Positions 29,534 through 44,325 of a stretch of DNA of 64,000 nucleotides are shown piece after piece. This stretch comes from Rhynchopus sp. YZ270_cl-10. Its lineage: Eukaryota. The stretch lies in the NCBI GenBank assembly GCA_964035575.1, contig OZ037842.1, forward strand, positions 992,001-1,056,000. Reading direction: 5' to 3'. The notes below the pieces were generated by a model, which did not search any database, had not been told where the DNA came from, and saw only the letters and a list, made by a program, of their open reading frames with translations. Position 1 is the stretch's first letter, and each line of letters begins with the position of its first letter. Both the position numbers and the translations under genes were made by a program.

Positions 29534-30790
29534 ATGTCTCTGCCCATTATAAAAGTGTGTGACATCCCTAAGGATTGTGCAGAGCCTGTGGATGCGAAGG
29601 CTTTGGAGCAGGCATCGGTGATTGTGAATGACATTCGTTCAGGCGGAGAGGCGAAGGTGCGTGAGTGGGCAGAGCGTTTGAAGGATGTGCCTGAAGGGGG
29701 TGCGTTGTACGCGAGCAAGGCAGAGATGAAGGAGGCGTATGACGAGCTGTCCGAAGGCGTGCAGGAGTTGCTTCAGCGGACTGCGGGGCGCATTCGTGCC
29801 TTTGCCGACAAACAGCGCAACAGCGTGACGGACATGAAGATGCCCATCCCCGGTGGCTTCGCAGGCCACGAAGTCGCCCCCGTGAAGTGTGCAGGCTGCT
29901 ACGCACCAGGCGGCCGGTACCCCCTCCCTTCCTCGGTCCTCATGACAGCGGTCACCGCACGCTCTGCAGGGGTGGAGGAGGTGTGGGTGGCAAGCCCGCG
30001 TCCAAGCAACGTTACGCTTGCAGCTGCGCACGTTGCAGGGGCAGATGGGTTTCTGAGGGTAGGCGGTGCGCAGGCCATCGCATCGCTCGCAGAGGGTGTG
30101 GGGTGCGAGGCTGCCGATGTCATTGTCGGCCCTGGCAACAAATGGGTGACAGCAGCAAAGAGCCTTGTACAGGGGAAGTGCAGTATCGACATGCTTGCAG
30201 GGCCTTCTGAAGTGCTTGTCATCTGCGATGAGACGTGCTGCCCAAAGACCATCGCCGCAGACCTGCTTGCCCAAGCCGAGCACGACACCGACGCACGCCC
30301 AATTCTTCTGTGCACCGATGCAGACACAGCGCACGCGATCATAGCCGAGGTTGACACCCAGCTTGCAGTGCTCCCCACCAAGGACACTGCCGTGGAGGCA
30401 GTCAAGAAGGGGTTCTGTGTTCTCGTCGACACAATTGAGGAAGCAGTCAAGATCAGCGACTCCATCGGGCCAGAGCACCTCGAAATACAGACAAAAGACC
30501 CCGAGAAGGTGGGGCGGTCTTGCTCTAGCTATGGTGGGCTGTTCATTGGCCAGTCTGCGGCTGAGGTGCTGGGCGACTACGGTGCAGGCCCCAACCACGT
30601 TCTCCCGACAGGCGGTACCTCGCGCTACACCGGTGGGCTCTCTGTCTTCAACTTCCTGAGAATTCGTACCTGGATGTCGATTGATTCGAAAGAAGATTCA
30701 CAGCAGTTGGTCAAAGATGCAGTGGAATTGGCAAGATTAGAAGGATTGGAAGGGCACGCCCGTGCAGCTGAGGCAAGGCTGTTGAAGTAG
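29534..30790 (+). CDS. hisD: Histidinol dehydrogenase (monofunctional)
   Basis: YAPGGRYPLPSSVLM, GGAQAIA, GPGNKWV, IDMLAGPSE, DLLAQAEH, PEHLE, GDYGAGPNHVLPT, LARLEGLEGHARA. Confidence 0.96.
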   Translation: MSLPIIKVCDIPKDCAEPVDAKALEQASVIVNDIRSGGEAKVREWAERLKDVPEGGALYASKAEMKEAYDELSEGVQELLQRTAGRIRAFADKQRNSVTDMKMPIPGGFAGHEVAPVKCAGCYAPGGRYPLPSSVLMTAVTARSAGVEEVWVASPRPSNVTLAAAHVAGADGFLRVGGAQAIASLAEGVGCEAADVIVGPGNKWVTAAKSLVQGKCSIDMLAGPSEVLVICDETCCPKTIAADLLAQAEHDTDARPILLCTDADTAHAIIAEVDTQLAVLPTKDTAVEAVKKGFCVLVDTIEEAVKISDSIGPEHLEIQTKDPEKVGRSCSSYGGLFIGQSAAEVLGDYGAGPNHVLPTGGTSRYTGGLSVFNFLRIRTWMSIDSKEDSQQLVKDAVELARLEGLEGHARAAEARLLK

Positions 30791-33779: not shown

Positions 33780-34892
33780 AAAGGTGGTACTCATGCGACC
33801 CCAAGCGAGCTGGGATTTGAAAGGATTTGTTTTGAGAAGGGGGATGTGCGTGTTTCCTGCTTGCGTTTTCGTCAAAATCACTGCAACCTTTTCCAAGGTA
33901 AACAGTTGGCGCGTCGCACCCCATACTTACCCCCAACCCTATACACGAGATTTGTATTTATTTTTTTGTCCCTGTGAGGGGGCATTTTTACGATTGCGAC
34001 GAAAGTGTTTGTATTTGAAAAAAAAGCAATATTGCTTAGGTGACCTGAACACGAGGCTTGGGTCATCTTCACCAGCTTTTCTTCGTTTTAACATGCCCCC
34101 CTTTTTTTTGTTTTGTTCTCAAGGGGATGGGCCTTTGCCATTTTCTTTGCAGTCATTCTGTACGGCATACTTGGTAAAGCAAAGTCCACTACCCCTTGCT
34201 CGGCTGTTAATGTTTTCTTTTTTTTATCCTTTTTTGTTTTTGCTCCACCCCCATGATTTATGAAGTGCTACGAAAGAACTGCTGATGCACAAAGAAGAAT
34301 CATCATTGTCCATCAGTAGTTGCTTATCATTGAAGAAAGGCGAGGTACGACCTTACTGAAGCAAGTTTTCTCAAGTTCTGCTTTGGTAAAGGCTATTTTC
34401 TTAAGGTGACTGAACACAGTTGTAGATTCACTTTGCCATCCTTTCTCTCTTGTTCTTTTGCCCGTAAAATATGTGACCCACGGTAATTAGACCCACACTG
34501 CCAAAAATGGGTGCTCATTCGGTTAAGTTGGGTGCTTTTTTGTGTCACCACGTTTTCCCCGATACTTGTTTCCTGTATTTCACAATCTTATGTACGCACT
34601 CCGTGGTACTTCCCGCCACTTTCGCATAATGTGAACCACAACCCCCACACACCATCCCTCTTCCACCCCTAACACCACGTTGTGAACGAAGCCCCCCCAA
34701 AATGCCATAAACGCTGCAAAATAAAACGAATTCTATTTTCTTTTGTACACTTCTGTTGTAGTCCGCAGGGTACTTTCATAATGCTTTCATCCGAGACTGT
34801 CATCGGGCAATCAGAGGTGCCTGCATCAATAACTTCCCTTTTTTTTTTTCTCTACTTACCCCCGCGCTACAGGGTTGTTTTTCCAAAAAATC

Positions 34893-35780
34893 ATGGTTGA
34901 TACGATTGTGAAAAGCGTGAAGGATGATTGTAAAGTAGTGGAGTTTATAAAGGAATGTTGCAGGAGTCTACGGTTTCGCACTGATACGTTGACGACAGCG
35001 TGTGTGTTGTATCATCGGGTGCGGGAGTGTGATGCTGCGGCTGATGGGTTTGAGGTGGCAGCATGTTGTATGTTCATTGCGGGGAAGGTGGAGAATCATT
35101 TTAGAAAGGCGCGGGATGTGGTCAATGTGTGTCATTGGGTGGAGCACGGGGAGGTGCTGGACATAGGGGATACGCTGTTTGATGGGAAGGAGGTGCTCTT
35201 TAACCGTGAGAAGGTGGTGCTGCGTCAGCTCGGATTTGACTGTCGTGTGGCAAAGCCGCATGCCTACCTTTTGCAGTTCGTGCAAGCCTTCTGCACCCCT
35301 GCCCTTGGCGCAAGGTGTGCGCAGCTCGCATGCATCTTCCTCAACGATGCCCTCGCAGCTCCCTTCTGTGCGCACCACCCCGCACCGCTGCTCGCCGCCG
35401 GAGCTCTCCACGCAGCCGAAATCGTTCTCGGGTGCTACTCACAAACTGCAAACCCCCTCTGGCCGTCTTCCATCCCGCTCCCTCTCGAAGAGGTGCGTGC
35501 CGTCTGTTCGAAGTTCTTTCAGCTCTACCACACCAATGTGGACCGTTGCATGTACACAATAACAGAAGACGCGAAAGAGTTCCGAAAGGCGCTCTACAAA
35601 TTAGGTGATGTCTGTGGGGTGTGGGGAGACGACGCAGTGCAGCAGGTGTTGGGGTGTGTCGGGTGGCTTGTAACTGCGGCTGCCGACGGTGCGCTTCTGC
35701 TCGTGGTGGATGTGAATGCAGGGGGTGGGGGTGCAGATGGGTACGTCATCCGCTGGGTGCCGTACCTCTGTGTGTCGTGA
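34893..35780 (+). CDS. Transcription-type cyclin (cyclin K/L/Q-like); 3' end uncertain after ~35604
   Basis: TACVLYHR, CMFIAGKVEN..RKARDVVNV, EKVVLRQLGFD, PHAYLL, FLND. Composition becomes G/T-rich and non-coding-like after 35604. Confidence 0.85.
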   Translation: MVDTIVKSVKDDCKVVEFIKECCRSLRFRTDTLTTACVLYHRVRECDAAADGFEVAACCMFIAGKVENHFRKARDVVNVCHWVEHGEVLDIGDTLFDGKEVLFNREKVVLRQLGFDCRVAKPHAYLLQFVQAFCTPALGARCAQLACIFLNDALAAPFCAHHPAPLLAAGALHAAEIVLGCYSQTANPLWPSSIPLPLEEVRAVCSKFFQLYHTNVDRCMYTITEDAKEFRKALYKLGDVCGVWGDDAVQQVLGCVGWLVTAAADGALLLVVDVNAGGGGADGYVIRWVPYLCVS

Positions 35781-36692
35781 GGGGGGTAGGGTGGGCAGGG
35801 GAGGGTGGCGTTGCAGCCACCCTGACGCTTTCCTGTTTGTACAGATTAGCGTAAAGGAAGGCACAGCAGTGTACAAAAAATGGGTCAGGCATGATAGCAG
35901 CAGTGCAGGTAGGTCTTATATTTGAAATCCTCTCTTTCGAGGGTGCAGCAGCATCAGAACGATTGTGGGTGGGGTGGGGTGCATGGGGTGGGGTGGATGT
36001 TCGTTGATTCAACACCGTTGATTCAGCATGATTTGGAGTCTGGCGAAGCTTGCGAAAGGGGTGATGAGGATCTGTGCTTGAAGAGGGGAGGGTGTGGGAG
36101 GGGAAGGTGTGCTGGTCTTGTGTTGCACGGTGGCAGCAGTGCTGCCCAACAGCCTCGGGTCTCAGCCTGCTGGCGGTGTGCCGTGCTTGGATGGAGCAGT
36201 TCTTGGTGCAGCAACGCTGCAGCATTGGCTGCTCAGTCTCAGTATTGCATGTCGCCCGATGGCGGAAGCACGTTGCATGTGGTGGTGAGGTTTGCTCAGG
36301 TGGGTCTGTTGCAGCGCATGGCACGACCACACGCACATTGGTGCATGTGTGTCTCGCAAGCATGCTTTCAGAAGTTGTGGTCCATCACTCAAGAACAGCA
36401 CTTCCCTCACACGGATGGAGCGTGTCAGGGTGAATGACTGCTGCTTTGCTGAACCAAAGCATACACGGCTGAGTTGGGTGGGGTGGGGTTTGGGAAGGGA
36501 TGTCTGATCTGAGTTGTTGTGCTGAGTGCAATGTGCACGAAGTGTGCAGGTGGTTTGGACGATGAACGTTGAGGGAAGGAGAGAAGAGGAGAGGATGGGA
36601 TGAGATGAGAAGGATGCCAGAGTTGTTAGTTTGTGCGGAGAGTGGGTTGGTAGAGGGGTGGGGTGGGGGAAGACGTGTGCTGAAAGAAGACC

Positions 36693-36975
36693 GTGCAATG
36701 ATGAAATAGAGTTGTGGCGACGGCTGCAGAAGGCTCCGCAGAAGACATGCACCCTACGCAGTCTTTTGGGTAAAGTCCCTCAGTGTTCACAGAGCTGTGC
36801 GCCCCTGCCATCTCCAGAGGAGAGCTGCCGTGTGGCAGTGCCCTTCTTCGTGAAGGTGCGCAGGCAGGTGTGCGTGCTGTCTCTTTGGATCACAGTCATG
36901 GAGCCTGCAATGTGCGCATTGCAACCTCAAGAGGGCTTATTCTCTGCATGCCTGCCTGCACACTCTGCTGAGCAC
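36693..36975 (+). ncRNA. Candidate RNase MRP RNA enclosed by a box C/D terminal motif, copy 1
   Basis: P1 GGCTGCAGA (36722-30)/TCTGCATGCC (36943-52); P2 GCTCCG/TGGAGC; P3 CAGAAGAC/GTCTTTTG; CR-I GGTAAAGTCCCT; CR-IV AGTCA; P19 TGCAATG/CATTGCA; CR-V ACCTCAAGAGGGCTTA; P4 AAG(T)CCCT/AGGGCTT. Box C ATGATGA 36698-704, box D CTGA 36968-71, terminal stem GTGC/GCAC. Confidence 0.8.
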
Positions 36976-37849
36976 ACCACTGATTTGATGAATTTGATGA
37001 AGAACCGCACCTGTGTGCTCACTTGCCGATCATGAGGAGCGCTGTCTGGGTTGGGTGACGTGCGTGATGGGAGGGTGGGTGGCACTACCAGGCTTCAGTG
37101 TTACTGATGCTGCGTGGTGTGCCTTGCTGTCTTAGCCGCTTTGGGTTGCATGCCACACGTTGACGTCAGTCATCGCGTTGGTATCTGTGTGGTGGGGTTA
37201 GCATCTGTGTGCTGTGTGTACAGGGTGCAGTGCGTTTACATCACACTCTGTGTTGTCTCTCTCACTCTCTGTGTATACAAGGGACCTCTTTGTTGTACAT
37301 GGCTTGTCTCCTGCCAAGAACGATCGCCATGTGGCAGGAAAGCAGCTCGGGTCTGTGGCCAGGGTAGTGGCTGGGTTCACCTCAGGTGCAGGGGTTTGAC
37401 TATGTCAATCCTTTTGTTCGCTGGGTGTGTTGTCTGACGCATGAACCATCCCACTCTGAGCTATGCTCAAAGTGACGGGTTCACATTCTGTGCAGAACGA
37501 TGGTTTTCATCCTCACCTTCTGCGGGTTCTTGCTTCAACCTACACTGTACCTTCACATTATTTGAGGGCATCATTTTCGTGTACTTGGTTGCTTCAAGAG
37601 GGTTGGGGTAGGGTGTTGGGTGTGGGGTGTGCCATTGTGCATATTTAACCTCCTTTTTGAGGTTCCGATTCGTTTGGTTTCGCTTCGGTGTGACACAGAC
37701 ATGACTTTCTCTTTGGCCGCATTTCCATTTTTTTGGAATGCCTCCCAACCCCGCTTTATTCCTGCTTGTTTGTTCTTCAATCGAGCGGATGACGTTACTG
37801 TGTGATATGCTACACGACAGACCCTCTTCTTCACTCTCACTAACGCACT

Positions 37850-40800
37850 ATGTCCTTCACACTGCCCCCGCTGCCCTGGGCCATTGACGCCCTTGCCGCC
37901 AAGGGTATCTCCAAGGAGCAGGTGGACTTCCACTACAACAAGCACCACGCTGGATACGTCACCAAGCTCAACGCCGCCGCCGAGGCACGCCCCGAGATCA
38001 AGGACAAGAAGATCGAGGAGCTCATCGTGAACAAGGACGCCACATACAACCTTGCCGCCCAGATCTGGAACCACACCTTCTACTGGAACTGCATGTATGT
38101 GGGGAGGGAGGTGATGGGGTTGGTAGAGGGGTGGGGTGGGGGGGAAGGCGTGTGCTGAAAGAAGACCGTGCAATGATGAAATAGAGTTGTGGCGACGGCT
38201 GCAGAAGGCTCCGCAGAAGACATGCACCCTACGCAGTCTTTTGGGTAAAGTCCCTCAGTGTTCACAGAGCTGTGCGCCCCTGCCATCTCCAGAGGAGAGC
38301 TGCCGTGTGGCAGTGCCCTTCTTCGTGAAGGTGCGCAGGCAGGTGTGCGTGCTGTCTCTTTGGATCACAGTCATGGAGCCTGCAATGTGCGCATTGCAAC
38401 CTCAAGAGGGCTTATTCTCTGCATGCCTGCCTGCACACTCTGCTGAGCACACCTTGATGAACACTGGACACAGTGGTTGATGACATGCTGTCTGTCACAT
38501 GGTCACATTCCTGATGGGTGGGTAGCTCAGGCTCAGGCTCAGGGGTTCGGGTTGGGGTCAAGAAAATAGAAATCATGCTTCTGTCTCAGAAGGCCCTCAT
38601 TTGCACCAACGAGGGTACACTGGTGGCACCCTCCATTTCACAACCACAGTCGTTTTTTCACAAAGCGGGGTTCATTTGGAAACGGTACTGTGCATTGTCC
38701 CATGTGAGCCACGATCCCAGAACGGATTGGCTGTTGCTTCGTTGCATCATCTACATGCGCAGCGTTGGGTAGAAGCGGGTTCCATCTTCCAGTGCTGAAG
38801 ATCATCAACAGCATGAGGGGTAGGGAGAATCTGGCCCGGTCTTAATGGGAAATAGTCAAAGTTGACTCCTAATAGGTGCATTTATTTTTTCCAGAGTCCC
38901 TTTCCCAGGGTCGATTTTCATGAGTGCCGAGCCCGGGTGAGGTAAGAAACACCTTGGGGTTACAGGCCCTTCCAAACATTGTGCGGTTGTTCTGTGTGTG
39001 TTCATTGGTCATGGGATGGCAGGAGGGGTCTCGAGTCTACTCTGCCATTGTCGAGTCTCGCGTGGCTCCTCCAAGCGCCTCCTTCACCCTCGTTACTGCC
39101 TTCTGGGTAAAGTTATGTGATTTTGAGCTCCAGTGCATCTACTGTGTGAAGAACAACCGGGAAACCACAGGTAGGGCATCTCACACGTTGCCTGCGTCAC
39201 ACAGGCAACGGGTGGCAGTAGGTGCGGAAATGAAGGGGGAAGGTGTGCTGCTGCAAAGAGACTGCACTCTTCCCCTGATCTTTCTTGCATTTCTCTGAAC
39301 GAAGAGTGCAACACTTGGGTGGTGCCTCTTGACGTGGCAGTGGAGATGGGCACAGGCGGCTTCATTTTCTCGCACAGTCATCTTTCAAGTTTCCTTCTGC
39401 ACACACCACTGCAGCTGTGGTGCTGCACCACAGCTGAGAGGGCTCTCCGCAACGTAGAGAAAACACTCCAGACAGTTGCCAACAGAGTCAAGCGTCCTCG
39501 TCGTGTTAGGGTGTGGGCCCCTCCTTGACCTTGGTGGACTTCGCAGCAAGCCACTCTAGGATCGTGCTGATCAGGGTCTGGAGCCTTGAGCACTTATGCG
39601 TCCTGATCGAGCGTCCTGCGTGACATCCCCGAAGGACAGTAGTGGTGCACGTCGCTCTGCAGTGGCATGGTGCCATTATGTCATGCGCATGCACGCCGTT
39701 CTTTCTTACTTGAGGCTGGCATCGTACGTGGGTCTGTCAGAGGTTCCTGCACCCATAACTATTCTTCTGAACTCGACCCAAGGTCTTGAGGATTTAAGCT
39801 TGCCACACACGGTTGTCTTCTCACAAGTCTTCGGCGAACTTAGAACAAGGAGCAGAAGTACTTTACACGCCTTTCCCCTGCTCACGCTCATGCACACAGT
39901 GATGCCTTTCTCAGGCACACCATGTCTTGCACACTTATCCATCCTGAGCCCTGCCTTGCCTACCCTGAGGAAAGCAACTTAGGTGCAATGCCTCAGTTTG
40001 TAGCTCCCCCTCCCCTGGCACCTTGCCGTGGTACGGTACACAACAGTGCAAATGTGCTAGAAGTTGTTGCACCACCTTCCGGTGCGAGGGTATCGCCATG
40101 ACAAAGTGGAGTGAAAGGGATTCTTTGAGTGCACAAAGGGTCTAATTTACATTGTTGTAGAAATGAGGGGACAACGTGCAGAAACCAGTTTCTCGGACAG
40201 TGCTGAAAGGATATGCCAAGAGAGCTTGCTCGGGGTTGGGATATAGGCACATAGCATACTAACCGGCAACCCTGTGGCAAAAAGAACTATCGGGTGTGAC
40301 CTCATGTGAGACATACATGGGAGTGGCGCAGGCCACGCTGCACCAGTGCGCAGGAGTTTACTGGTGAGTGATTTCAACCTGGGTTATTGTGTTATTTCAA
40401 AGAGGGGATTGGCTCCAGAACTGCGGATCACACCGCGTTTTCGGATGATGAAAACGGTCAGAATCGAAAAGTTCGTCAAAAAATAAACCCAAAGAAGAAA
40501 ACACATGACAACTTTCTCCGGATAGAAGCAGTTTCAAATTACCCAAGCATTTCAAGGGAAGTGCGGGATCTACATGACATCCTGTACATATGGCAGGAAG
40601 CATCACCTACAAGAAAGCGGGTGGTGAATAGGAAGGTGCTCATCATGCGTGCCTGACCTTCCCGTGAAGGTGATGGGGCGCGACTGTGACTCTTGGTCTG
40701 CCCTTAGGCGTTATGGAGGGGACAAGCGACATGCTGTATAAGCACTCGTTTTTTCGAGCCTCGTTCCAAACCTAACTGGCCCACTCGCTTCCGACACCCA

Positions 40801-42961
40801 CTGCACGTGTATACGCGTTGGGCTGCGGACTGACACTGTTCAGCACCGGAGGGAACTCACCACCCGGCACGTCCAAGGCTCGCGTTGCAACATCAACAAC
40901 CCGTGCAACAGGAAGAAGCTGCACAACATCCTTGGTGGCTTCTGCGTAAAGAACTGTCTTGGCAGGTTTATTTGATGTGAAGTGCACAACTCCAACGGAT
41001 GCCAATAAAAAAACCCACCTTGCATCACTGGGATTCGCACAAATGGGTTTCTTAATGAAATTTATTGTGCGTGAGTACCGCTAAGTGCATAACAAGGAGA
41101 TAAATGCGTGATGTCTGCACGGCACGCGACAAATGCCCGAAGAAGTTCGATGGCAAGGGAAGTAGGAAAAAGTTTGTGCAAAAAGAGGGTGACATCACGT
41201 ACAGTGCCCACTTGGTTGGGTGGTTTGTCGAAAAACTAAAAATGTTCACGTGCTTCGTGTGCGAACATTTCGTGGCTCACCACGCAGTCAATTGTAGTAT
41301 GGGGGAGTACTTCCCCTTATGCACCCAGTATACGCATTCCGGGGAAAATAGCCTGGGTGGCGACATGGAAGCAAGCCAGTGGGGAGTGACGTGTAATGTA
41401 TTTTTTTATCAGATGTAAACCATGAAATGGATGTTGGACTGCATGGTTGGGGTCCACCAGTCATGTACCAAGGTGCACTGTCACGAGAGGGGTTTTGTAT
41501 TTCAAGTCAACTTTTTTCTTTGTTGAGGCATCGATTTTCCAAATATTCCCAACATGAGCCCTCATCGTACAAATGATCGACCACACAATATGTCGACCAC
41601 AACAAAGGTGAACCGTACTTAAGTTGGGGATTTTAGGATTTTTGCCAGCTTGGGTCTGCACGCTCCAACATTTGTACGTTTACGGTATTACAGACACGTC
41701 CAGACATTTTACAGCACTGCCCTTCGGGGCTGGGTACACGGGTGGGGGACCTGTCTTTCACTGATAATAAATGTTATCGTCTTCGTGTGGTTCTTTGTGA
41801 GGGTGTGTGCAGAAACCCCACTATAAAACAGTGTACGCCATAGATACAGAATGCGCATCATGCGCAAATTGTGTAAAAAACACAAATTGTCATGCGCATA
41901 TTTTTTTGTGTTTTTTCTAAGAGAAAAACACAAAATTTTGCGCATTAAAAAAAACAGCAAAAAAATATGCGCATTTAGAAAAACACACAAAATTTTGCGC
42001 GTCATGCGCATTATGCGCATTCTGATGCGCATATTTTTTTGTGTGTTTTTCTAAAATGCGCATGTTTTTTTGTGTTTTTTTGTGTTTTTTGGTATGCGCA
42101 TCACACATATGTGTTATGCGCATACCAAAAAAACACAAAAAGACATGCGCATGAAGAAAAACACAAAAAAATATGCGCATCCACTTTTGTTTTTTTGTAT
42201 GCGCATGACATAAAAAAAACACACAAAAAACATGCGCATAACACAATTATGCGCATTATGCGCATTCTCTAGCTATGGTACGCCTCCTCACCTTTTGGGT
42301 AGCATTAAGTGCACATCTGTCTTTTTTTGACACGGGGTTGGTCAGCCCAGCGTTTCCTCCTACCCAATCCTTGTAAAGGAACACCGGAAGGTTCCATCGT
42401 GAAAACATCAGCATCATAGTCAACCTAGGGGGTGGCACAGCTCCCCCCGGTCGATCACATCTATTTTATGAGGGATCTAAGAACGCAAGGCTTATCCTAC
42501 CAACTAACTTTTCATTGTCTTTTCCCAGAGAATTCAATATTTTCCCCACTTTTACTTGCGTGGGTCGTTTTAGCGTGAAAGGCCTTCTGTTAAACTCTTA
42601 TCTTTTCAAAACCATATTCTTTTTTTGCAGGGCGCCCAACGGTGGAGGTGCCCCGACCGGCGCCATCAAGGACGCGATTGACAGAGACTTCGGATCGTTC
42701 GATGAGATGAAGAAGCAGTTCTCTGCTGCTGCCGCTGGCCACTTCGGAAGCGGATGGGCGTGGCTGGTGAAGGACGGTGACAAGCTGAAGGTGCACCAGA
42801 CCCACGACGCTGGCTGCCCTCTCTCCGAGAACCTGAAGCCCGTGCTGACCTGCGACGTGTGGGAGCACGCCTTCTACATCGACTACCGTAACGACAAGGC
42901 CAAGTACGTCCAGACCTTCTGGGACGCCGTCAACTGGGACTTCGTTAACTCCAACCTGTGA
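37850..42961 (+). CDS. sodB: Iron superoxide dismutase (SODB-like), 2 exons separated by a 4.5-kb intron
   Basis: Exons 37850-38094 and 42631-42961 join as WNCM|APNGGG. Motifs HYNKHH, NLAAQIWNHTFYW, HFGSGWAWL, CDVWEHAFYIDYRN. Confidence 0.96.
38168..38450 (+). ncRNA. Candidate RNase MRP RNA enclosed by a box C/D terminal motif, copy 2 (intronic)
   Basis: Identical by eye to 36693-36975 (offset 1475). Starts 73 nt after the FeSOD intron donor. Confidence 0.8.
41408..41515 (+). repeat. Representative copy of ~110-nt dispersed repeat (family 3)
   Basis: AAACCATGAAATGGAT..TGCATGGTTGGGGTCCACC..TTTGTATTTCAAGTCAA at ~41408, 43927, 61481. Confidence 0.88.
41839..42277. mobile_element. Foldback-like MITE built from ATGCGCAT palindromes
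   Basis: TIR CATAGATACAGAATGCGCAT / ATGCGCATTCTCTAGCTATG. More than 15 TGCGCA units. Flanked by direct repeat GTACGC (41833-38, 42278-83). Confidence 0.82.
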
Positions 42962-44325
42962 GACCTCTCCCTGTTTCGTGTGTTTCCAAACGTCTCTCGG
43001 CTCCCCAATTAAATACCGCGCTTTAGAAATAAGAAGCAAATCTGCATTATAAAGCAATACTTTAGCCAAAAAATAAAGTTCAAAATTTCGAAGAAAAAAA
43101 ACCCCTATTTTAACTGCCTAACCAACAGTCTAACACGGATAGAGAGGCATATTTGCATGCGATCCACCAACCCACCAATCCCACCCCTCGCAAAGATTAA
43201 AAAAAATTGAACACGTGTGTTTTTTTTTGAAGATGTGTGCAGTAGAGGCACATTTTATCTGTCAAATGTTTTTATAATTATTTTCGTGTGGTTTTTTTGT
43301 ATGCCAGAACAGGGTGAGTTTGTGCTTGGATGATGCCTCTAAACAAGGGGTCCATTTAAAAAGATGTCTATGCACATGAGGGATATCCATATTTCAACTT
43401 TTTTAACACATCTCTCCCAAACTTTGTCATATAAATACCACCATTTCAACGTTTCCGTGTTCGTTTCCCCGTTTTTAAAAAAGTTTTTTGAAAACCTTTC
43501 GCTCTTTGGTGAATTGTTTTCATCATATTTTATTTTTTGAGGGCTGTTTTTTTCTTTCCTGTCTTTATGTTCATTGGTCAGTAGTTTATACAGAAAATCA
43601 GCCTCTGATTTTTTTTTGAAGGCAACGTGCGTACGGGGAGGTATTTCCCCACGTTCACCTCAGATGTTTACCATCACCTTTGACAACACAGTCTGCTACC
43701 CGCCCTTTATTTTTGATCTAAAGACAGCAAAAAGAGAAATAGACACCCTTCTCCCCCTCCCCTCCCTCCCCCCCGGCCCCTCCTTTCTCTCTTCAGGGGG
43801 GGTCAACTGGGTAATAAAAAAAGACAAAGTTATTTTCCCCTATGCAAACACTGAGAATATATGGTTCATCCTGTCACCCTATGAATATTATGTATCAGAT
43901 GATGAGTGGAAAGCGGGAGTAGCACATATCAGATATAAACCATGAAATGGATTGTAGGACTGCATGGTTGGGTGTCCACCCCCCCGGTACAGCCGGTCAA
44001 TGTACCGAGGTACGCTATTCACGAGAGGGATTTGTATTTCAAGTCAACTTTCTTTTTCTACCAAACACTTCTCTCTCTTTTTTTCCCCTGTGAATATCAA
44101 TACATCAATGGATAATTCTCATGGATTCTGATAAAGCTGCAGTCCAAATATGTTTGGCGTCCACAAAAAGTCGCCAAATTACCCCCAAAATCCCCAAATC
44201 CGCCAAACTTATTTGGACTACTGTAGTTATGTGTTAGTATTATATGCAGTGCTATAGCCTTGCCACCCCTCTTCACCCTCACCAAGAAGACACATAGCCC
44301 CCTCCCCACTCCCAGAGGTCTCACA

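What the first reader, a model, noticed from the sequence alone, without database searches (positions are those of the whole stretch)
36693..36975. RNase MRP RNA core in an apparently non-coding G/T-rich region
Seen in sequence, in the order expected for the RNase P/MRP catalytic domain: P1 5' GGCTGCAGA, AG linker, P2 5' GCTCCG, P3 hairpin CAGAAGAC..GTCTTTTG, CR-I GGTAAAGTCCCT, then GTGTTCA/TGGATCAC closing a multi-hairpin second domain, CR-IV AGTCA, P2 3' TGGAGC, P19 TGCAATG-tgcg-CATTGCA, CR-V ACCTCAAGAGGGCTTA-TTC and P1 3' TCTGCATGCC. The P4 pseudoknot AAG(T)CCCT/AGGGCTT has the bulged U. Established (recalled): human MRP has GAAAGUCCCC/GGGGCUCAUUC while RNase P has GGUCUGAG/UUCAGAC, so this is MRP-type with one compensatory change (C-G to U-A). 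Caveats: P3 is very short and lacks the usual large internal loop, and the only GARAR candidate (GAGAG 36820-24) is not clearly in P8. From memory, euglenozoan MRP RNAs long escaped detection and were reported only recently, so presence alone may not be new.
Basis: partly seen in the sequence, partly recalled or inferred. Interest (0 to 1): 0.85.

Follow-up and report, generated by a model that had tools for sequence, protein, structure and literature searches.

The report
RNase MRP RNA with snoRNA ends
A diplonemid protist carries two identical copies of an RNase MRP-type RNA gene framed by box C/D snoRNA motifs, one inside an intron of a superoxide dismutase gene, so this RNA, which probably cuts ribosomal RNA precursors, is likely made and protected like a snoRNA, as its trypanosome counterpart appears to be.

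Summary
The MRP core is real: Rfam RF00030 matches 36721-36952 over the full model (37.4 bits, E 7e-9, below the 50-bit cut-off). The host is a diplonemid. (1) The 283-nt unit is closed by a canonical box C/D kink-turn, found at only 2 places in 64 kb. (2) A second, identical copy lies at 38168-38450. (3) That copy sits in a 4.5-kb intron of an Fe-SOD gene, joined across in an RNA-like contig, beside a C/D snoRNA candidate. No Pol III terminator or TATA is nearby. T. brucei TB10Cs1C2 is labelled both MRP and C/D snoRNA and shares the boxes, the U-A P4 pair and the short P3, so C/D-framed MRP is not new. A 2021 paper on euglenozoan MRP was unreadable here and may cover Diplonema. GARAR-P8 and the P3 internal loop are not met. 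Expression and catalysis are untested. This scan noted intronic MRP RNAs in other genomes before, but no C/D-framed one. Interest 0.5.

The parts
36693..36975 (+). Copy 1: predicted 283-nt box C/D-capped RNase MRP RNA
   Evidence: Rfam RF00030 36721-36952; C/D frame; fold
36693..36704 (+). Terminal stem 5' arm (36693-36696), 3-nt kink-turn bulge (36697-36699) and box C AUGAUGA (36698-36704)
36968..36975 (+). Box D CUGA (36968-36971) and terminal stem 3' arm (36972-36975); the only CUGA in the RNA
36709..36730 (+). Extended P1, 5' strand; pairs with 36943-36965 and brings boxes C and D together
   Evidence: duplex of 36705-36730 with 36943-36967 = -26.2 kcal/mol
36733..36768 (+). P2 5' strand (36733-36737) and short P3 hairpin (36739-36768) without the large internal loop; contains a T4 run at 36764
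36769..36780 (+). CR-I / P4 5' strand with bulged U36776
36781..36893 (+). Domain 2 (specificity domain): predicted long stem with a three-hairpin head; a P5 plus P8-like alternative fold is 14 kcal/mol less stable
36894..36942 (+). CR-IV (36894-36899), P2 3' strand (36900-36904), P19 (36906-36923), CR-V / P4 3' strand (36924-36942)
38168..38450 (+). Copy 2, identical to copy 1 (box C 38173-38179, box D 38443-38446); begins 73 nt into the SOD intron
   Evidence: identical block 36674-36978 = 38149-38453, 305 bp
37850..38094 (+). Fe/Mn-SOD gene, exon 1 (host of copy 2)
   Evidence: Pfam Sod_Fe_N, E 2.7e-22
38095..42630 (+). 4536-nt GT..AG intron of the SOD gene
   Evidence: A contig of run X2 joins 38094 to 42631 with 1 difference; the joined frame is intact
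42631..42961 (+). Fe/Mn-SOD gene, exon 2
   Evidence: Pfam Sod_Fe_C, E 4.3e-41
38454..38514 (+). Candidate 61-nt box C/D snoRNA directly behind copy 2; target unknown
   Evidence: the only hit of a relaxed short C/D scan over 35850-42630; no Rfam family
36985..37107 (+). Weaker candidate C/D snoRNA behind copy 1 (C-like boxes at 36985 and 36994, C'-like 37032, D 37104, external 6-bp stem 36975-36980/37114-37119)
   Evidence: read from sequence; no Rfam family

Best explanation
This is a diplonemid RNase MRP RNA gene, present in two identical copies and framed by box C and box D, that is likely processed and stabilised like a C/D snoRNA and likely serves as the catalytic RNA for pre-rRNA (ITS1) cleavage. 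Shown: the MRP core, the canonical C/D kink-turn frame on an extended P1, the duplication, copy 2 inside the SOD intron, and no nearby Pol III terminator or TATA. Inferred steps: (1) the RNA is transcribed by Pol II as part of the intron (copy 2) or of the polycistronic precursor (copy 1); (2) Snu13 binds the kink-turn and recruits Nop56/Nop58/fibrillarin, which stop exonuclease trimming at about 36693 and 36975 and target the RNA to the nucleolus; (3) with at least Pop4/Pop5-type subunits, the P4/CR-IV/CR-V centre cuts single-stranded pre-rRNA. The RNA is probably not a methylation guide, since the bases before box D are paired in P1 and there is no C'/D' pair.
For: Full-length Rfam RF00030 match. 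Six-nucleotide CR-IV with A1, G2, A7. The canonical C/D frame occurs at 2 places in 64 kb on both strands, both being the MRP copies; rough joint chance about 4e-6. The identical block ends 3 nt after the terminal stem. First downstream T4 is 437 nt (copy 1) and 203 nt (copy 2) away, there is an internal T4, and no TATA in 100 nt upstream. By contrast, 7 of 7 complete control MRP loci from metagenomes have a TATA, a T4 within 14-17 nt of CR-V, and no C or D box (several are near-identical, so not independent). The SOD intron is bridged by an RNA-like contig. T. brucei TB10Cs1C2 is labelled MRP (PMC3273796 supplement) and C/D snoRNA (PMC6411936 Table S2). By eye it shows box C, a helix right behind it, P2, a 33-nt P2-to-P4 segment (34 here), AAAGTCCCT, a six-nt CR-IV, AAGAGGGCTTA and a distal box D. 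Trypanosome telomerase RNA also uses the C/D pathway (PMC4993307). POP5 (D. papillatum, S. specki, R. humris) and POP4 (D. papillatum) appear as automatic KEGG labels in PMC10161547's supplement.
Against: The score is below Rfam's gathering cut-off (37.4 vs 50). There is no GARAR pentaloop on P8 and no large P3 internal loop. A 3-bp P5 adjacent to P4 appears only in a fold 12-14 kcal/mol above the best one. No diplonemid orthologue could be aligned, so there is no covariation for the C/D frame within diplonemids. Two substitutions in a diverged contig (36717, 36745) break predicted pairs unless partner changes were among the rows not shown. POP1, RPP30, RPP25, RPP20 and RPP38 KEGG ids were not found in that supplement, which lists only gains, losses and expansions. 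A 2025 paper states that a trypanosomal RNase MRP orthologue could not be identified (PMC12702573).
Confidence: 0.72

Rival explanations
1. An MRP-derived C/D snoRNA that no longer cuts but acts as a scaffold or chaperone in pre-rRNA processing, like U3 or U14.
For: GARAR-P8 and the P3 protein-binding loop are missing. Kinetoplastids reportedly lack P/MRP proteins (recalled from the abstract of Alm Rosenblad 2021, not readable here).
Against: P4 with its bulged U, CR-IV and CR-V are kept and match T. brucei closely. POP4 and POP5 labels exist for diplonemids.
Confidence: 0.13
2. An ordinary, separately transcribed (Pol III) MRP RNA of about 232 nt; the C/D-like frame is incidental or vestigial.
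For: Pol III transcription is the rule in animals (PMC4287351). The Rfam model fits 36721-36952 without the flanks.
Against: Perfect kink-turn geometry with chance about 4e-6; no terminator or TATA and an internal T4; intronic position; the T. brucei counterpart is typed as C/D.
Confidence: 0.08
3. The duplication is an assembly artefact, or one or both copies are inert or mobile-repeat copies.
For: The copies are 100% identical over 305 bp. The whole genome was not available to count copies.
Against: The flanks differ, including a 2-nt indel in the shared G-tract. A contig of run X5 runs from copy 1's unique upstream DNA into the RNA, and another runs from SOD exon 1 into the shared G-tract. 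There are only 2 copies and no degenerate fragments in 64 kb.
Confidence: 0.04
4. A divergent nuclear RNase P RNA.
For: Same Rfam clan, and only the best clan hit is reported, so the RNase P score was not seen. GARAR is absent.
Against: CR-IV has six nucleotides, not eight. The MRP model wins the clan overlap. Core motifs are identical to the T. brucei RNA labelled MRP.
Confidence: 0.03

Closest known systems
T. brucei TB10Cs1C2 (MRP), 520 nt (PMC3273796 supplement; typed C/D snoRNA in PMC6411936 Table S2)
   Same: Box C, a helix directly behind it, short P3, AAAGTCCCT / AAGAGGGCTTA P4 with the U-A pair, six-nt CR-IV, distal box D, and snoRNA neighbours (compared by eye).
   Different: Here 283 nt, with a canonical 4-bp terminal stem, a full P19, and two copies, one in a cis-spliced intron of a protein-coding gene. 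T. brucei has a P8-like hairpin with a GUGAG loop; none is clear here.
Canonical RNase MRP RNA (Rfam RF00030; human RMRP, yeast NME1)
   Same: P1-P2-P3-P4-CR-IV-P19-CR-V catalytic domain; six-nt CR-IV.
   Different: C/D cap, no Pol III signals, no large P3 internal loop, no GARAR pentaloop.
Euglenozoan MRP RNAs of Alm Rosenblad, Lopez and Samuelsson 2021 (PMC8677039; only the citation was seen, content recalled)
   Same: Recalled to report MRP RNA in Euglena, Diplonema and kinetoplastids.
   Different: I could not check whether it describes C/D boxes or intronic copies in diplonemids.
Flagellate telomerase RNA using the box C/D pathway (review PMC4993307), and intronic RNase P RNA of insects and crustaceans (PMC4287351)
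   Same: A functional RNP RNA moved into a Pol II or snoRNA biogenesis route.
   Different: Different RNAs; no C/D cap is mentioned for insect P RNA in the passages read.

Membership tests
RNase MRP RNA | Match to covariance model RF00030 | tested here: inconclusive
   Full-length, E 7e-9, but 37.4 bits is below the gathering score of 50
RNase MRP RNA | P4 pseudoknot from CR-I and CR-V with bulged U | tested here: met
   7 of 7 pairs around U36776
RNase MRP RNA | Six-nucleotide CR-IV with A1, G2, A7 (eight in RNase P) | tested here: met
   AGUCAU 36894-36899
RNase MRP RNA | 3-bp P5 immediately adjacent to P4 | tested here: inconclusive
   Possible (36781-36783/36877-36879), and two substitutions in a diverged contig stay pairable, but this fold is 12-14 kcal/mol above the best fold, where the stem starts 2 nt later
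RNase MRP RNA | P8 GARAR pentaloop | tested here: not met
   The only GARAR is at 36820, inside another hairpin; the best P8 candidate has a GAGC tetraloop
RNase MRP RNA | P3 with a large internal loop (Pop6/Pop7 site; recalled) | tested here: not met
   30-nt hairpin with at most a small bulge; T. brucei is similarly short
RNase MRP RNA | Protein subunits Pop1, Pop4, Pop5, Rpp30 in the organism | not testable with these tools
   No genome held; POP4 and POP5 labels in related diplonemids only
RNase MRP RNA | Cleavage of pre-rRNA ITS1 | not testable with these tools
   Needs experiment
Box C/D RNA | 5' RUGAUGA and 3' CUGA forming a kink-turn with a terminal stem | tested here: met
   4 Watson-Crick pairs, 3-nt bulge, exact consensus
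Box C/D methylation guide | Free antisense element before D or D', and internal C'/D' | tested here: not met
   One C-like and one CUGA motif only; bases before D are paired in extended P1
Box C/D RNA | Binding of Snu13/Nop56/Nop58/fibrillarin | not testable with these tools
   Needs experiment
Nuclear RNase P RNA | Eight-nucleotide CR-IV | tested here: not met
   Six nucleotides

The most novel reading that the evidence does not exclude
In the common ancestor of diplonemids and kinetoplastids, RNase MRP became a hybrid snoRNP-ribozyme. The box C/D core proteins took over end protection, nucleolar targeting and part of the scaffolding from the P3-binding subunits. This let the P3 loop and GARAR decay, let the gene move into introns and snoRNA clusters, and in kinetoplastids let the Pop proteins be lost. 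The compact diplonemid RNA would be the intermediate state.
Probability: 0.3. Interest if true: 0.8.

Novelty: new variant of a known kind. Interest (0 to 1): 0.5.

Why it matters
Whether trypanosomes have a working RNase MRP is still stated both ways in print (PMC6411936 says a homologue exists, PMC12702573 says none could be identified). This compact RNA is recognisable by Rfam and shares both its core motifs and its C/D frame with TB10Cs1C2. That supports TB10Cs1C2 as a true MRP orthologue and suggests the C/D cap predates the split of diplonemids and kinetoplastids. It gives a direct test of how MRP could work with few or no Pop proteins. It also shows that C/D-framed sequences in euglenozoan snoRNA catalogues can hide a ribozyme core.

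Tried and rejected
Orthologue hunting gave no diplonemid sequence. The metagenome scan returned 35 loci. By inspection, 8 of 35 looked like MRP genes of other eukaryotes; 7 complete ones were given to Rfam and all 7 passed, and one truncated locus (L025) was left out. The other 27 looked like chance matches and were not tested further. A stricter pattern found 0 in viral contigs and 0 in prokaryote genomes. No whole genome is held. The run search listed no holder on record as RNA. Run X1 has one 250-nt contig identical to 38196-38445, but its library type is a guess and contigs cannot show RNA ends, so I do not count it as expression evidence. A closer read-laying on the RNA alone was not obtained, so the full list of differences in the diverged X5 contig, including box C, stays open. 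Rfam found no family for flanking candidates; miRNA-family hits at 41850-42320 are low-complexity palindromes far below their cut-offs. Sliding folds found no other strongly structured segment in 35900-37300 or 38440-39000; 120-nt windows were also weak on the MRP itself, so this test has low power. No tRNA genes. Paper searches that found no description of a C/D-framed or intronic diplonemid MRP. The library lacks the 2021 RNA Biology paper; I did not read Liang 2005 or Barth 2008.

Full report
Observation. Rfam RNase_MRP matches 36721-36952 over the whole model at 37.4 bits, E 7.1e-9, below the curated cut-off of 50. The weak part of the alignment is domain 2; the catalytic domain aligns with high posterior values. 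The 283-nt strand folds better than 200 of 200 shuffles (z -2.9).

Host. Histidinol dehydrogenase from the window has as closest named relatives Rhynchopus humris (cluster of the 76% hit), Lacrimia lanifica (74%), Diplonema ambulator (71%) and D. japonicum (69%). The organism is therefore a diplonemid. No whole genome is held.

Box C/D frame. The finding's own ends are the ends of a kink-turn: a 4-bp Watson-Crick stem (36693-36696/36972-36975), a 3-nt bulge, box C AUGAUGA (36698) and box D CUGA (36968). An extended P1 (36709-36730/36943-36965; -26.2 kcal/mol for the slightly longer duplex) brings the boxes together. A scan for this exact geometry with boxes 40-300 nt apart finds 2 sites in 64 kb on both strands, and they are the two MRP copies. 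A rough joint chance from window frequencies is 4e-6. There is no C'/D' pair and the bases before box D are paired, so a methylation-guide role is unlikely.

Second copy and context. A second Rfam hit lies at 38196-38427. The block 36674-36978 is identical to 38149-38453 (305 bp) and stops 3 nt after the terminal stem. No further or degenerate copies are in the window. Copy 2 begins 73 nt into a GT..AG intron (38095-42630) of an Fe/Mn-SOD gene. The exons carry Sod_Fe_N and Sod_Fe_C and join to an intact frame. A contig of run X2 (guessed to be RNA) bridges 38094 to 42631 with one difference, while contigs of X5 run across both exon-intron borders. A 61-nt C/D candidate follows copy 2 directly (38454-38514), and a weaker one follows copy 1. 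Copy 1 lies between a cyclin gene and SOD; whether it is in a 3'-UTR intron (candidate GT at about 35909, AG at about 37223) or in the intergenic part of a polycistronic precursor is untested.

Transcription signals. Neither copy has a TATA within 100 nt upstream. The first downstream T4 is 437 nt (copy 1) or 203 nt (copy 2) away, and the RNA itself contains a T4. Seven of seven complete MRP loci from metagenomes (Rfam 72.6-93.7 bits; several near-identical) show a TATA, a T4 within 14-17 nt of CR-V, and no C or D box. That matches the Pol III rule reported for animals (PMC4287351, passages). This favours snoRNA-like processing from a Pol II precursor; it is an inference.

Comparison with trypanosomes. 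The supplement of PMC3273796 (search hit and part 6 of 9 of file 2; file 1 not searchable) labels TB10Cs1C2 as MRP, 520 nt, in a snoRNA cluster, and Table S2 of PMC6411936 types it as a C/D snoRNA. By eye, that sequence has box C, a helix immediately behind it, a 6-bp P2, 33 nt between P2 and AAAGTCCCT (34 here), a six-nt CR-IV, AAGAGGGCTTA (identical here), and a CTGA about 535 nt from box C. So the U-A pair in P4, the short P3 and the C/D frame are shared. This was not an alignment run by a tool. Passages in PMC6411936, PMC3091756 and PMC6562600 accept a T. brucei MRP, whereas PMC12702573 says none could be identified. A review passage reports C/D biogenesis for flagellate telomerase RNA (PMC4993307). 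Alm Rosenblad et al. 2021 was seen only as a citation (not held). I recall that it reports MRP RNA in Euglena, Diplonema and kinetoplastids and no subunits in kinetoplastids, and I cannot say whether it mentions C/D boxes.

Membership. Using section 9 of PMC13184271 (its supplements had no euglenozoan names): the six-nt CR-IV is met, P4 is met, an adjacent P5 is inconclusive, and GARAR-P8 is not met. The best fold of domain 2 is a long rod with three apical hairpins (-106.9 kcal/mol). A human-like P5 plus P8 arrangement with a GAGC loop is possible at -92.7. In a diverged contig of run X5 I tested the eight listed substitutions that fall inside the RNA (one search hides 32 rows). Two next to P4 stay pairable in the human-like fold and are unpaired in the rod. 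Three improve an apical P3 helix from 3 of 5 to 5 of 5 pairs, although one of them breaks a pair of the best-fold register. Two others break predicted pairs unless hidden changes compensate, and one is unpaired. That contig may be a paralogue, an allele or a related organism. I therefore file the RNA as an MRP orthologue with a divergent periphery; the failed features are also weak or altered in T. brucei. Automatic KEGG labels give POP5 in three diplonemids and POP4 in D. papillatum (PMC10161547 supplement rows; the main text had no match). Other subunits were not found in that partial table.

Mechanism. Most likely the RNA is cut out of a Pol II precursor, capped by the C/D core proteins at the kink-turn, carried to the nucleolus, and used with a reduced set of Pop proteins to cleave pre-rRNA ITS1, the known MRP role (PMC6411936 passage). 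The anatomy and genomic context are shown; expression, protein binding and cleavage are inferred. That P3 normally binds Pop6/Pop7 and helps nucleolar targeting is recalled knowledge, and it motivates the idea that the C/D cap replaces it.

Novelty and verdict. Euglenozoan MRP and a C/D-typed T. brucei MRP are in print. In ten paper searches I found no description of a compact, canonically C/D-capped, intron-hosted diplonemid MRP, but the most relevant paper was unavailable. Earlier notes of this scan report intronic MRP RNAs in a green alga and in Bonamia (unchecked) and nothing C/D-framed. Verdict: real; new variant of a known kind; interest 0.5.

Noticed in passing
window 38454-38514 (+): Candidate 61-nt box C/D snoRNA packed directly behind MRP copy 2; its 5' stem overlaps the end of the duplicated block. 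No Rfam family; target not tested for lack of rRNA sequence.
   Followed up: partly
window 36985-37107 (+): Weaker C/D snoRNA candidate behind copy 1, with an external 6-bp stem. A joint in run X5 links 38560 to 37030, hinting at another arrangement of this cluster elsewhere.
   Followed up: partly
window 34893-35849 (+): Cyclin gene (Pfam Cyclin_N). The raw ORF seems to read into a G-rich intron (35605-35844); splicing would end the protein at 238 aa. No RNA support was obtained.
   Followed up: partly
window 41850-42270: Array of ATGCGCAT-centred palindromes with A/T tracts inside the SOD intron; gives spurious miRNA-family hits and may be a non-autonomous transposon remnant.
   Followed up: no
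window about 41390-41525, 39714-39751, 34814-34844: Short stretches hit by very many contigs in run X5, i.e. dispersed high-copy repeats; related copies at 44027 and 45047.
   Followed up: no
window 35605-36670 and 38095-38145: G-rich tracts follow the proven SOD 5' splice site and the predicted cyclin one, and precede both MRP copies; possibly an intron or snoRNA-processing signal in this organism.
   Followed up: no
L006, L008, L010, L011, L023, L024, L031: Canonical RNase MRP genes (72.6-93.7 bits) with TATA and T4 signals in metagenome contigs, from unidentified eukaryotes; used only as controls.
   Followed up: partly
window 29534-30790 (+): Intronless histidinol dehydrogenase whose next-closest relatives after diplonemids are cryptophyte and ochrophyte proteins (about 63%).
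   Followed up: no
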